DNA of 64,000 bases from Escherichia phage vB_EcoM-UFV13: sequence record NC_031103.1. One strand, given 5' to 3'. Each line of letters begins with the position of its first letter. Position 1 is the first letter of the stretch. The notes below the pieces were generated by a model. The model worked only from the letters and a program-made list of their open reading frames with translations, made no database searches and was not told where the DNA came from. Below, piece by piece: positions 2,092 through 18,622 of the stretch. The translations under genes were made by a program, and so were the position numbers.

Positions 2092-2099
2092 TATAAATA
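2092..2099 (+). promoter_or_regulatory. T4-type late promoter TATAAATA for gene 19
   Basis: Exact TATAAATA immediately after the hairpin, about 74 nt upstream of the gene 19 ATG. Confidence 0.65.
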
Positions 2100-2150: not shown

Positions 2151-2158
2151 TATAAATA
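2151..2158 (+). promoter_or_regulatory. Second TATAAATA motif upstream of gene 19
   Basis: Exact TATAAATA 15 nt before the ATG; the predicted start would fall in the SD (GAGG), so function is uncertain. Confidence 0.35.
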
Positions 2159-14915: not shown

Positions 14916-14923
14916 TATTTATA
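14916..14923 (-). promoter_or_regulatory. T4-type late promoter (TATAAATA on the minus strand)
   Basis: TATTTATA on the + strand overlapping the stop of the 74-aa ORF, upstream of the 55-aa ORF. Confidence 0.55.
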
Positions 14924-15622: not shown

Positions 15623-16021
15623 TTATACTCTATTACTGGAAGCCAGTTGCAGTTTTATCTGCTCAATATCATCAGGATTATCGATGACCGAAAAGCGTAT
15701 TTCTACTATCAGAGTATAATCATCATAAACCGGTATCACATTAACTGATAATTTATCAATACGTGGCTCATAGTTTCTTACCGCGCTTTCGATGTTACGC
15801 TCAACTGTGTCAGCAGTAAGAGGAGTCATATTTTCAAAAAGCTGGTCTGATAAATCACATCCAAATTCAGGGTCAAACGGTCTTGAACCTTTTCTTGTTG
15901 TAATAATTCCCAAAAGACTGTTTTTAATTGACCTTAATCCAAGAGATCTAGAAACGTCTTTGTCCCAGTCCATTTTCATTTCTGGGTCAATGTCAGAATA
16001 AAGCTTATTAATATTTGCCAT
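15623..16021 (-). CDS. 25: Baseplate wedge protein gp25
   Basis: 132 aa as in T4 gp25; position. Confidence 0.9.
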   Translation of the reverse strand: MANINKLYSDIDPEMKMDWDKDVSRSLGLRSIKNSLLGIITTRKGSRPFDPEFGCDLSDQLFENMTPLTADTVERNIESAVRNYEPRIDKLSVNVIPVYDDYTLIVEIRFSVIDNPDDIEQIKLQLASSNRV

Positions 16022-16647
16022 TACAATAGCTCAAAGAATTCTTTGAGTCCTCTTATTACATGAGCGTGAGTTTTTCCACACTCTGGACACTTAATTGGAA
16101 CAGCCAAATAAACAGTAGGCTTTAAAAGCATATCTTTTATAGCTACAATATCTGACTCTGTGATGATAGAATATAAATCTTCCAGTTCTTTTTCATTTAA
16201 GTCTTCAACTGGAATGCTTTCCCCGTTAGCATGAATCGTTTCTATACATGATACTATCATGTGGGCTATATTTTTATCATCAAAAATTTTAGGGTAATGG
16301 AACTTAATTTTAATGTCACCCAGTGTATACCAGAGGTCTTCTGGTGCATCTATTTGTGTATGTAATAGATTTATATGGGTTGGTATTTCAGTTCCACAGG
16401 TGCACTTCCAGGAGTTTTCGTGATTAACTTCACCAAGAGAATGTGCCCATAAATGAATCAACAATAGTTCTGATTCTTGGCGGTTTAAATCTTTTGCATT
16501 TGTGCAGTCTTTGATTAGCTTTTTAACAATTACTTCTACGGAACCATTATTTTTGGCAGTAATAAGTTCTAGATATTCTTTAAGCGTGAATGCGCGACAA
16601 TTGATTATTTTAGAACCAACTCTCACGTCAAATTTGTATTCATACAT
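16021..16647 (-). CDS. 26: Baseplate hub protein gp26
   Basis: 208 aa as in T4 gp26; position. Confidence 0.85.
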
Positions 16648-16668
16648 ATTTAGCTCCTTTATTTATCA

Positions 16669-16676
16669 TATTTATA
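16669..16676 (-). promoter_or_regulatory. T4-type late promoter for genes 26-25 (TATAAATA on the minus strand)
   Basis: TATTTATA on the + strand, 22 nt upstream of the gene 26 ATG. Confidence 0.65.
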
Positions 16677-16680
16677 AATA
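16673..16680 (+). promoter_or_regulatory. T4-type late promoter TATAAATA for gene 51
   Basis: Exact TATAAATA 18 nt upstream of the gene 51 ATG; overlaps the minus-strand motif in the palindrome TATTTATAAATA. Confidence 0.6.
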
Positions 16681-16697
16681 GAATAAAAGGAGCATCT

Positions 16698-17447
16698 ATG
16701 GCAAACATTATTCGTTGTAAATTACCAGATGGTGTTCATCGTTTTAAACCATTTACGGTAGAAGATTATCGAGATTTTTTGTTAGTTCGAAACGATATAG
16801 AACATCGGTCACCACAAGAACAAAAAGAAGTAATTGCTGATTTAATTGCTGATTATTTTGGAGACTATCCAAAGACTTGGCAACCATTTATATTTTTGCA
16901 GGTATTTGTAGGGTCAATAGGTAAAACTAAAGTACCAGTCACATTTGTGTGTCCAAAATGTAAAAAAGAAAAGACGGTTCCATTTGAAATATATCAAAAA
17001 GAATTAAAGGAACCTGTTTTTGATGTAGCTAATGTTAAAATTAAATTAAAGTTTCCTTCTGAGTTTTATGAAAATAAAGCAAAGATGATTACTGAAAATA
17101 TTCATTCTGTTCAAGTAGATGAAATATGGTATGATTGGAAGGAAATTAGCGAGTCCAGTCAAATAGAACTAGTTGACGCCATCGAGATAGAAACATTAGA
17201 AAAAATTCTCGATGCAATGAATCCTATTAATTTAACATTGCACATGTCGTGTTGTAATAAGTATGTAAAAAAATACACTGATATAGTAGATGTGTTTAAG
17301 CTATTAGTTAACCCAGATGAAATATTTACTTTTTATCAAATTAATCACACACTCGTAAAAAGTAATTATAGCTTAAATTCAATAATGAAAATGATTCCTG
17401 CCGAGCGCGGATTCGTATTAAAACTGATTGAGAAGGATAAACAATAA
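16698..17447 (+). CDS. 51: Baseplate hub assembly catalyst gp51
   Basis: 249 aa as in T4 gp51; position. Confidence 0.85.
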
Positions 17448-18622
17448 TGAGTATGTTGCAACGCCCCGGATATCCAAATCTCAGCGTTAAATTATTTGAT
17501 AGCTACGACGCTTGGAGTAATAATAGATTTGTTGAATTAGCTGCTACTATTACCACATTAACTATGCGGGATTCTCTTTATGGCCGAAATGAAGGAATGC
17601 TGCAGTTTTATGATTCTAAAAATATCCACACAAAAATGGATGGGAATGAAATAATTCAGATTTCTGTAGCTAATGCAAATGATATTAATAATGTTAAAAC
17701 ACGAATTTATGGATGTAAGCATTTTTCCGTGTCAGTAGATTCAAAAGGTGATAACATCATTGCTATTGAATTGGGAACTATTCATTCTATAGAAAATCTT
17801 AAATTTGGTAGACCATTTTTCCCTGATGCAGGTGAATCTATAAAAGAAATGCTTGGCGTCATTTATCAGGATCGCACATTATTAACTCCAGCAATAAATG
17901 CCATAAATGCCTATGTTCCTGATATTCCATGGACTAGCACATTTGAAAACTATTTGTCATATGTAAGAGAAGTTGGTCTAGCTGTAGGAAGCGACAAATT
18001 TGTATTTGTGTGGCAAGACATCATGGGAGTTAACATGATGGACTATGATATGATGATAAATCAAGAACCATATCCAATGATTGTCGGTGAGCCATCTTTA
18101 ATAGGTCAATTCATCCAAGAATTAAAATACCCATTAGCATATGATTTCGTTTGGTTAACTAAATCGAATCCTCACAAACGTGACCCAATGAAAAATGCTA
18201 CTATCTATGCGCATTCATTTTTAGATTCTTCATTGCCAATGATTACTACGGGAAAGGGCGAAAACTCTATTGTAGTGTCAAGGTCAGGTGCTTATTCTGA
18301 AATGACTTATAGGAACGGATATGAAGAAGCTATTCGTCTTCAAACTATGGCACAATATGACGGATATGCTAAATGTTCTACTGTCGGCAATTTTAACTTG
18401 ACTCCTGGTGTTAAAATTATTTTTAATGATAGTAAAAACCAATTTAAAACAGAATTTTACGTTGATGAAGTTATCCATGAATTATCCAATAATAATTCAG
18501 TAACTCATCTATATATGTTCACTAATGCAACGAAACTGGAAACAATAGACCCAGTTAAGGTTAAAAATGAATTTAAATCTGATACTACCACTGAAGAAAG
18601 TAGTTCTTCCAATAAGCAATAA
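17447..18622 (+). CDS. 27: Baseplate hub protein gp27
   Basis: 391 aa as in T4 gp27; TAATG overlap with 51. Confidence 0.9.

What the first reader, a model, noticed from the sequence alone, without database searches (positions are those of the whole stretch)
16661..16682. Back-to-back late promoters fused into a palindrome (TATTTATAAATA) between genes 26 and 51
The minus-strand late promoter for genes 26-25 (16669-16676) and the plus-strand late promoter for gene 51 (16673-16680) overlap by 4 bp. Two polymerase complexes cannot occupy both at once, so baseplate hub gene 26 and assembly factor gene 51 may be mutually exclusive in initiation.
Basis: seen in the sequence. Interest (0 to 1): 0.35.

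Follow-up and report, generated by a model that had tools for sequence, protein, structure and literature searches.

The report
Known T4 bidirectional late promoter (26/51)
The 12-base palindrome between baseplate genes 26 and 51 is real and consists of two overlapping phage T4 late promoters pointing in opposite directions, but to my recollection it was already described in T4, so it is an ordinary finding.

Summary
TATTTATAAATA sits at 16669-16680. It contains a minus-strand TATAAATA (16669-16676) and a plus-strand TATAAATA (16673-16680) that overlap by 4 bp. It lies in the 50-bp gap between gene 26 (16021-16647, minus) and gene 51 (16698-17447, plus). The window is a Tequatrovirus, and this gap is base-for-base identical to T4.

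The 12-mer is expected 0.05 times per window by chance. It is exactly conserved at this junction in 26 of about 31 distinct intergenic sequences, from 11 named Straboviridae genera plus IMG/VR contigs, while the bases beside it vary freely. An A is conserved at both predicted start sites.

Best reading: a compact bidirectional gp55-dependent late promoter with predicted starts about 23 bp apart. From memory, this was described for T4 in 1989 (Scarlato et al., Virology 171:475), but I could not retrieve that paper. Both promoters were predicted computationally for RB69 in 2006.

One RNA polymerase at a time per template follows from published structures and footprints. A regulatory trade-off between genes 26 and 51 has not been shown. 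Work on E. coli bidirectional promoters suggests competition matters only at high occupancy.

Novelty: already known. Interest: low.

The parts
16669..16680 (.). 12-bp perfect palindrome TATTTATAAATA, made of two late-promoter octamers sharing the central TATA
   Evidence: Exactly conserved in 26 distinct 26/51 intergenic sequences.
16669..16676 (-). Late promoter octamer TATAAATA for genes 26-25 (P26); predicted positions -6 to -13 reading leftward
   Evidence: The octamer is defined as -13..-6. It lies 21 nt from the gene 26 start codon.
16673..16680 (+). Late promoter octamer TATAAATA for gene 51 and downstream hub genes (P51); predicted positions -13 to -6
   Evidence: It lies 17 nt from the gene 51 start codon.
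16663..16663 (-). Predicted transcription start of the 26-25 late transcript (A on the minus strand; +/-1-2 nt). The leader is AAUAAAGGAGCUAAAU.
   Evidence: Inferred from the -13..-6 rule. This position is T on the plus strand in 85% of 26 distinct sequences. Not mapped here.
16686..16686 (+). Predicted transcription start of the gene 51 late transcript (A; +/-1-2 nt). The leader is AAAGGAGCAUCU.
   Evidence: Inferred as for the minus-strand start. This position is A in 92% of 26 distinct sequences. Not mapped here.
16654..16659 (-). Shine-Dalgarno AAGGAG of gene 26
16687..16692 (+). Shine-Dalgarno AAGGAG of gene 51
16651..16698 (.). Pseudo-palindrome of 24+24 nt centred between 16674 and 16675 (71% complementary), with the exact inverted repeat GCTCCTTT/AAAGGAGC. 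The layout is SD-leader-promoter|promoter-leader-SD.
   Evidence: Read-through RNA in either direction folds at -13 to -14 kcal/mol and buries the SD and AUG. RNAs started at the late promoters are unstructured.
16660..16667 (-). One-mismatch octamer GATAAATA. Probably not a productive promoter, because its predicted start would fall inside the gene 26 SD.
   Evidence: geometry
16021..16647 (-). Gene 26 (baseplate hub, 208 aa)
15623..16021 (-). Gene 25 (baseplate wedge, 132 aa), downstream of gene 26 in the same unit
16698..17447 (+). Gene 51 (baseplate hub assembly protein, 249 aa)
17447..18622 (+). Gene 27 (baseplate hub, 391 aa). Its start overlaps the gene 51 stop, and it is the next gene in the rightward unit.

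Best explanation
This is the T4-type bidirectional late promoter of the baseplate hub cluster. Two consensus gp55-dependent late promoters (TATAAATA at -13..-6) lie back to back and share their first four base pairs. RNA polymerase carrying gp55 and gp33, activated by the gp45 sliding clamp, starts leftward at about 16663 to make the 26-25 mRNA, or rightward at about 16686 to make the 51-27-28... mRNA. The two starts are about 23 bp apart, and the leaders are only 16 and 12 nt long, each with a strong AAGGAG. Each complex covers the other promoter, so one DNA molecule can hold only one initiating polymerase at this site at a time. The two directions therefore fire alternately rather than together. 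gp45 activates only promoters of one polarity for a given clamp orientation, so any one clamp can serve only one of the two directions. The overlap most likely reflects extreme packing of a ~50-bp divergent gap. It then became frozen, because every one of the 12 bases belongs to at least one essential promoter and any indel inside destroys one of them. What is shown: the sequence, its position, its non-random occurrence and its conservation. What is inferred: the start sites, gp55 dependence, exclusivity and the effect of clamp polarity.
For: Both octamers are perfect and correctly oriented, 21 and 17 nt from their start codons. The intergenic region is identical to T4. The 12-mer is unique in the window, with 0.05 expected. 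It is exactly conserved at the 26/51 junction in 11 named genera: Tequatro-, Mosig-, Karam-, Jiaoda-, Gelderland-, Gapriver-, Dhaka-, Winkler-, Teguna-, Hadassah- and Bragavirus. It is also present in 25 of 29 distinct IMG/VR junction sequences. The four bases on either side carry only 0.17-0.5 bits of information, and A is conserved at both predicted +1 positions, 92% and 85%. No sigma-70-type promoter is predicted in the gap. Nolan et al. 2006 predicted two opposite-strand late promoters, Pl:118620(+) and Pl:118672(-), in RB69, and both lie in its 26/51 gap at 118623-118669. The octamer is defined as -13..-6, and gp55 contacts non-template bases -12, -9 and -8 in the open bubble. The clamp sits at the upstream end and adds 13 bp to the footprint. 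[quoted passage not shown] From memory, and not retrieved here: Scarlato et al. 1989, Virology 171:475, 'overlapping promoters direct divergent transcription of the base plate gene cluster', describes this site in T4.
Against: The T4 GenBank and RefSeq records annotate no promoters here. The late-transcription review warns that not all listed TATAAATA sites have been verified in vivo. Three lineages depart from the 12-mer at this junction. Krisch-like phages have a 1-bp insertion (TATTTTATAAATA) that leaves only the rightward octamer perfect. Two Aeromonas phage lineages have a 10-bp palindrome, TATTTAAATA, with a non-consensus base at -12, and no late promoter was predicted there in 44RR. Acinetobacter phages keep the palindrome even though their 65-67-bp gap has room to separate the promoters, so packing alone does not force the overlap.
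Confidence: 0.9

Rival explanations
1. The exact 4-bp overlap is itself selected as a regulatory device. The two hub operons compete for a single polymerase/clamp per template, and the direction is chosen by the orientation of the gp45 clamp, that is, by which strand carries the nick or primer end. This would set or buffer the ratio of 26-25 to 51-27-28-29 transcripts.
For: The overlap is invariant across many genera, even where the gap is 65-67 bp. Clamp activation is strictly polarity-specific. At E. coli bidirectional promoters, strong activation of one direction represses the other through polymerase competition and lowers expression noise. The junction lies about 1.1 kb from oriF, at a strand-switch region.
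Against: Nothing here measures competition. At basal activity the E. coli promoters show none. Late templates are numerous and promoters clear after escape. Invariance is equally explained by each base being needed for one of two essential promoters. Geometry does change in some lineages, and at the 4/53 junction, without apparent harm.
Confidence: 0.12
2. The two directions help rather than hinder each other. Divergent transcription leaves negative supercoils between the departing polymerases, and these promote opening of the shared AT-rich element, so firing in one direction stimulates the other.
For: Basal gp55 transcription is markedly more active on negatively supercoiled DNA. The twin-domain model of transcription-coupled supercoiling is established knowledge.
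Against: Late T4 DNA is nicked and replicating, so supercoils may dissipate. Clamp-activated transcription works on nicked or linear DNA. There are no data for this site.
Confidence: 0.08
3. The palindrome is, in addition or instead, the operator of a dimeric DNA-binding protein, for example an A/T-binding late protein such as DsbA.
For: It is a perfect 12-bp dyad. DsbA was reported to bind A/T-rich sites overlapping two late promoters, though with micromolar affinity.
Against: The boundaries of conservation coincide exactly with the two octamers, with no extra conserved flanking bases. The same octamer occurs at many single, non-palindromic late promoters in the window. dsbA is non-essential.
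Confidence: 0.04
4. Only one octamer is functional. Gene 26 would then be expressed from read-through or from the nearby GATAAATA, and the second TATAAATA is a by-product of the near-palindromic nature of the motif.
For: TATAAATA is nearly self-complementary in AT-rich DNA. In Krisch-like phages only the rightward octamer is perfect.
Against: A single TATAAATA does not create a second one on the other strand; four further specific bases are needed, and they are invariant. A start directed by GATAAATA would fall inside the gene 26 SD. Gene 26 has no co-oriented upstream late gene to read through from. An A is conserved at the leftward +1 position.
Confidence: 0.04

Closest known systems
T4 P26/P51 overlapping divergent late promoters of the base plate gene cluster (Scarlato, Storlazzi, Gargano, Cascino 1989, Virology 171:475; cited from memory, not retrievable in the held library)
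   Same: It is the same locus. The 50-bp intergenic sequence in the window is identical to T4.
   Different: Nothing in the element itself differs. The window phage is another Tequatrovirus: the best database match is 98.7% identical, and gp51 is 238/249 identical to T4.
Predicted opposite-strand late promoters Pl:118620(+)/Pl:118672(-) of phage RB69 (Nolan et al. 2006, PMC1524935, Additional file 5)
   Same: The junction and the 12-mer are the same. Both predictions fall in the RB69 26/51 gap, and the Mosigvirus sequence carries TATTTATAAATA.
   Different: These are computational predictions only, and the paper's text found here does not discuss the overlap.
Sigma-70 bidirectional promoters of E. 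coli (Warman et al.; PMC12825309 and its reference 16)
   Same: A symmetric -10-type element is shared by two divergent starts. 23 bp is one of the common separations (18, 10 and 23 bp). Simultaneous binding of opposing polymerases is sterically excluded.
   Different: Here the specificity factor is gp55, the element is an 8-bp motif with no -35, and activation comes from a non-site-specific, orientation-dependent sliding clamp. The predicted 23-bp spacing has not been mapped.
T4 gene 4 / gene 53 divergent late junction (outside this window)
   Same: Two opposite-strand TATAAATA sit in a 47-bp gap between divergent late structural genes. In Serratia phages PS2 and Muldoon this junction carries the identical 12-bp palindrome.
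   Different: In T4 and most relatives the two octamers are crossed (face to face, 7-10 nt apart). Predicted starts are about 4 nt apart and the transcripts overlap at their 5' ends.
Late promoter inside an RBS-sequestering hairpin (T4 gene e, I-TevI; review PMC3014915)
   Same: Longer read-through RNA is predicted to bury the SD and AUG in a hairpin. RNA started at the late promoter lacks the 5' arm and is open.
   Different: Here the complementarity follows automatically from two opposed SD sequences. No read-through transcripts or translational effects are documented for this site in what I could read.

Membership tests
T4-type (gp55-dependent) late promoter | 8-bp TATAAATA element at -13 to -6, tightly matching the consensus | tested here: met
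   Perfect octamers on both strands at 16669-16676 (-) and 16673-16680 (+). Definition.
T4-type (gp55-dependent) late promoter | No -35 element, and not a sigma-70 promoter | tested here: met
   No sigma-70-type match inside 16648-16697. Bases flanking the palindrome are unconserved.
T4-type (gp55-dependent) late promoter | Lies just upstream of a late (virion structural or assembly) gene in the same orientation | tested here: met
   17 nt to gene 51 and 21 nt to gene 26. 12 of the 19 octamers in the window lie 14-34 nt upstream of an ORF start. Gene identities.
T4-type (gp55-dependent) late promoter | Primary transcript 5' end about 6 nt downstream of the octamer, dependent on gp55/gp33/gp45 and replication | not testable with these tools
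   Indirect support only: A is conserved at both predicted +1 positions. Published mapping is recalled (Scarlato 1989) but was not retrieved.
Bidirectional promoter (sensu Warman/Grainger) | Divergent starts on opposite strands either side of a shared, symmetric -10-type element, with preferred spacings of 18, 10 or 23 bp | tested here: inconclusive
   The shared symmetric element is present. The 23-bp spacing is predicted from the -13..-6 rule and has not been measured.
Bidirectional promoter (sensu Warman/Grainger) | Recognised by the housekeeping sigma factor through TATAAT symmetry | tested here: not met
   The motif is the gp55 octamer and no sigma-70 promoter is predicted. It therefore works like this class but is the phage late-sigma version.
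Bidirectional promoter (sensu Warman/Grainger) | RNA is made in both directions, and opposing polymerases exclude each other | not testable with these tools
   Exclusion is inferred from structure and footprints.
Late-promoter-in-hairpin translational gating (gene e / I-TevI type) | Read-through RNA forms a hairpin that sequesters the RBS, and the late transcript starts inside it and is open | tested here: inconclusive
   Predicted hairpins of -14.3 kcal/mol (minus; z -2.55) and -13.0 kcal/mol (plus; z -3.18), against 0 and -0.3 kcal/mol for the late-initiated RNAs. The complementarity is an automatic result of two opposed SDs, and the existence of read-through RNA was not tested.

The most novel reading that the evidence does not exclude
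The exact 4-bp overlap, kept across more than ten genera even where the gap would allow separation, is selected. It would turn the hub-cluster promoter into a one-polymerase-at-a-time switch whose direction is set by the orientation of the incoming gp45 clamp, and hence by which strand carries the nick or primer end near oriF. This would couple the ratio of 26-25 to 51-27-28-29 transcripts, or its noise, to the state of replication.
Probability: 0.1. Interest if true: 0.5.

Novelty: already known. Interest (0 to 1): 0.15.

Why it matters
It matters little as a discovery. To my recollection, the overlapping divergent late promoters of the T4 baseplate cluster were reported in 1989, although I could not retrieve that paper. 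The equivalent RB69 sites were predicted in 2006. The sequence here is identical to T4.

The session does add a clean comparative picture. The 12-mer is invariant at this junction across much of the Straboviridae, with sharp boundaries and a conserved initiating A on both sides. A second divergent late junction (4/53) uses either a crossed layout or the same palindrome.

That makes the site a convenient natural test bed for one open question. Does polymerase competition, recently characterised at E. coli bidirectional promoters, operate when the activator is an orientation-specific sliding clamp?

Tried and rejected
1. I tried to retrieve the primary literature. Searches for the Scarlato 1989 title phrases and authors found nothing in the held library. 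The T4 genome review PMC150520 is not held. That paper is therefore cited from memory only.

2. I looked for promoter annotation in the T4 records NC_000866 and AF158101. None is given for this region.

3. I looked for a genome-wide T4 transcription-start map from dRNA-seq or Cappable-seq. None was found.

4. I considered the one-mismatch GATAAATA at 16660-16667 as the real gene 26 promoter. I rejected it because its predicted start falls inside the SD and would leave about 7 nt of leader.

5. I considered a sigma-70 early or middle-type promoter in the gap. None is predicted.

6. I considered a protein operator. I rejected it because conservation stops exactly at the octamer boundaries.

7. 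I looked for predicted late promoters at the 44RR junction in Nolan et al.'s table. None is listed, so the status of the Aeromonas 10-bp palindrome stays open.

8. I did not attempt a covariation test of the SD/anti-SD hairpin. The pairing is forced by two functional SDs, so the test would be uninformative.

Full report
**What is in the sequence.** The region reads CAT (16645-16647, the gene 26 start on the minus strand), ATTTAGCTCCTTTATTTATCA, TATTTATAAATA, GAATAAAAGGAGCATCT, ATG (16698, gene 51). TATAAATA is found on the minus strand at 16669-16676 and on the plus strand at 16673-16680. The two copies share TATA and form a perfect 12-bp palindrome at 16669-16680.

The flanking ORFs are 16021-16647 (minus, 208 aa), 15623-16021 (minus, 132 aa), 16698-17447 (plus, 249 aa) and 17447-18622 (plus, 391 aa). 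They correspond to T4 genes 26, 25, 51 and 27. Against T4, gp26 is 207/208 identical, gp25 130/132 and gp51 238/249.

The window belongs to a Tequatrovirus that is not T4 itself; its best database match is 98.7% identical. The 50-bp gap between genes 26 and 51 is nevertheless identical to T4 116429-116478.

**Is it more than chance?**
- The window has 19 TATAAATA against 8.4 expected, and no shuffle of 100 reaches 19.
- 12 of the 19 lie 14-34 nt upstream of an ORF start on the same strand, including the two here at 17 and 21 nt.
- The 12-mer is unique in the window, with 0.05 expected per 64 kb.

**Comparative evidence.** I collected the 26/51 junction from 14 named phages of different genera and from 50 IMG/VR contigs found with a gp51 profile.
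- The exact 12-mer is present in Tequatro-, Mosig-, Karam-, Jiaoda-, Gelderland-, Gapriver-, Dhaka-, Winkler-, Teguna-, Hadassah- (Acinetobacter) and Bragavirus.
- It is present in 25 of 29 distinct IMG/VR junction sequences.
- When 26 distinct sequences are anchored on the 12-mer, the four bases on either side carry only 0.17-0.5 bits. Conservation therefore stops exactly at the octamer boundaries. The 2.0 bits inside the 12-mer are circular, because those sequences were selected for containing it. The informative numbers are the fraction of junctions that contain it and the sharp edges.
- The position six bases beyond each end, which is the predicted +1, is A in 92% of sequences rightward and A on the minus strand in 85% leftward.
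- The distance from the palindrome to either start codon is 16-24 nt in nearly all sequences.

There are exceptions.
- Krisch-like phages have TATTTTATAAATA. The 1-bp insertion leaves only the rightward octamer perfect.
- Two Aeromonas phage lineages have a 10-bp palindrome, TATTTAAATA.
- Slopek-like Klebsiella phages have genes 51, 26 and 25 on the same strand, so there is no divergent junction.

**What it is.** The T4 late promoter is an 8-bp TATAAATA at -13 to -6 with no -35 element. It is recognised by gp55 and activated by gp33 and the gp45 sliding clamp. In the cryo-EM open complex, gp55 flips non-template bases -12, -9 and -8.

Applying that register gives these predictions:
- P51 has -13..-6 at 16673-16680 and +1 at about 16686.
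- P26 has -13..-6 at 16676-16669 and +1 at about 16663.
- The starts are about 23 bp apart.
- The leaders are AAAGGAGCAUCU (12 nt) and AAUAAAGGAGCUAAAU (16 nt).

No sigma-70-type promoter is predicted in the gap. The whole gap is a 24+24-nt pseudo-palindrome centred between 16674 and 16675, with the two SDs forming an exact 8-bp inverted repeat.

**How it most likely works.** One polymerase binds in one of two orientations. The two bubbles (-12 to about +2) abut and share only base pairs 16674-16675. However, the upstream duplex of each complex, where gp33 and the clamp sit and where the footprint is extended by 13 bp, is the bubble and downstream channel of the other. Simultaneous occupancy of one template is therefore excluded. 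This is an inference from published structures, not a measurement at this site.

A T4-specific consequence follows. [quoted passage not shown] A given clamp can therefore activate only one of the two directions. This too is inference.

The identification as two fused late promoters stands. 'Mutually exclusive in initiation' is true in the narrow, per-template and per-instant sense. Nothing supports it as a regulatory trade-off. For E. coli bidirectional promoters, which have the same geometry class (starts 18, 10 or 23 bp apart around a shared symmetric -10), competition was undetectable at basal activity. It appeared only when one direction was strongly activated. Stimulation through transcription-coupled negative supercoiling is an equally open possibility, since gp55 transcription is favoured by supercoiling.

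**Comparison with what is known.**
- From memory, this exact site was described as 'overlapping promoters direct divergent transcription of the base plate gene cluster' (Scarlato et al. 1989, Virology 171:475). I could not retrieve that paper or any paper citing it, and the T4 genome review is not held.
- Retrievable evidence exists for RB69. Nolan et al. 2006 list opposite-strand predicted late promoters Pl:118620(+) and Pl:118672(-), and both lie in the RB69 26/51 gap at 118623-118669.
- The T4 database records carry no promoter features here.
- The late-transcription review cautions that not all listed sites have been verified in vivo.

**Seen along the way.** T4's other divergent late junction, gene 4/gene 53, lies outside the window. 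It also packs two opposite-strand octamers into 47 bp, but in a crossed layout with predicted starts about 4 nt apart. Most relatives keep that layout. Serratia phages PS2 and Muldoon instead carry the same 12-bp palindrome there. Bidirectional late promoters thus come in two geometries that have interconverted.

RNA reading through the 26/51 gap in either direction is predicted to fold into a hairpin of -13 to -14 kcal/mol that buries the SD and the AUG. The late-initiated RNAs are open. This resembles the logic at gene e and I-TevI, but here it follows automatically from two opposed SDs and is untested.

**Verdict.** The feature is already known and ordinary for T4-type phages. The residual interest lies in using it to test polymerase competition and clamp polarity at a natural bidirectional late promoter.

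Noticed in passing
L018 5339-5385 (T4 NC_000866 77338-77384; outside the window): The gene 4(-)/gene 53(+) junction also has two opposite-strand TATAAATA in a 47-bp gap, but in a crossed layout: the plus octamer sits next to the gene 4 SD, then a 7-nt spacer, then the minus octamer next to the gene 53 SD. Predicted starts are about 4 nt apart and the transcripts would overlap at their 5' ends.
   Followed up: partly
L095 and L096, upstream of position 701 (Serratia phages PS2 and Muldoon): At the 4/53 junction these phages carry the same 12-bp palindrome TATTTATAAATA that T4 has at 26/51. Most other relatives keep the crossed layout, often with A at -13.
   Followed up: partly
window 16651-16698: The whole 26/51 gap is a 24+24-nt pseudo-palindrome with the exact inverted repeat GCTCCTTT/AAAGGAGC. 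Read-through RNA in either direction is predicted to form a hairpin of -13 to -14 kcal/mol that buries the SD and AUG. RNAs started at the late promoters are unstructured.
   Followed up: partly
L010 1128-1197; L011 1156-1203; L012 1152-1197: Krisch-like phages have a 1-bp insertion (TATTTTATAAATA) that leaves only the rightward octamer perfect. Aeromonas phages 50AhydR13PP and 44RR2.8t have a 10-bp palindrome, TATTTAAATA, with T instead of A at -12. No late promoter was predicted there for 44RR by Nolan et al.. How gene 26 is transcribed in these phages is unclear.
   Followed up: partly
L014 and L015 (Klebsiella phages phi1_146010 and Roth41): Distant gp51 relatives (27-28% identity) sit in a co-directional block, tail tube - 51-like - 26-like - 25-like, so the divergent junction and its palindrome do not exist there.
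   Followed up: no
window 16660-16667 (minus strand): A one-mismatch octamer, GATAAATA, lies 1 bp from the palindrome. Its predicted start would fall inside the gene 26 Shine-Dalgarno, so it is probably not productive.
   Followed up: partly
window 2092-2099 and 2151-2158 (plus strand); window 14916-14923 (minus strand): Two tandem perfect TATAAATA lie 73 and 14 nt upstream of the ORF starting at 2173. Another perfect octamer overlaps the 3' end of the uvsY.-1 homologue, upstream of the uvsY.-2 homologue.
   Followed up: no
about window 15540 (T4 115321): Replication origin oriF (ori-uvsY) is annotated in T4 about 1.1 kb left of the bidirectional promoter. A review notes that oriE, oriF and oriG lie near the regions where the transcribed strand switches.
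   Followed up: no
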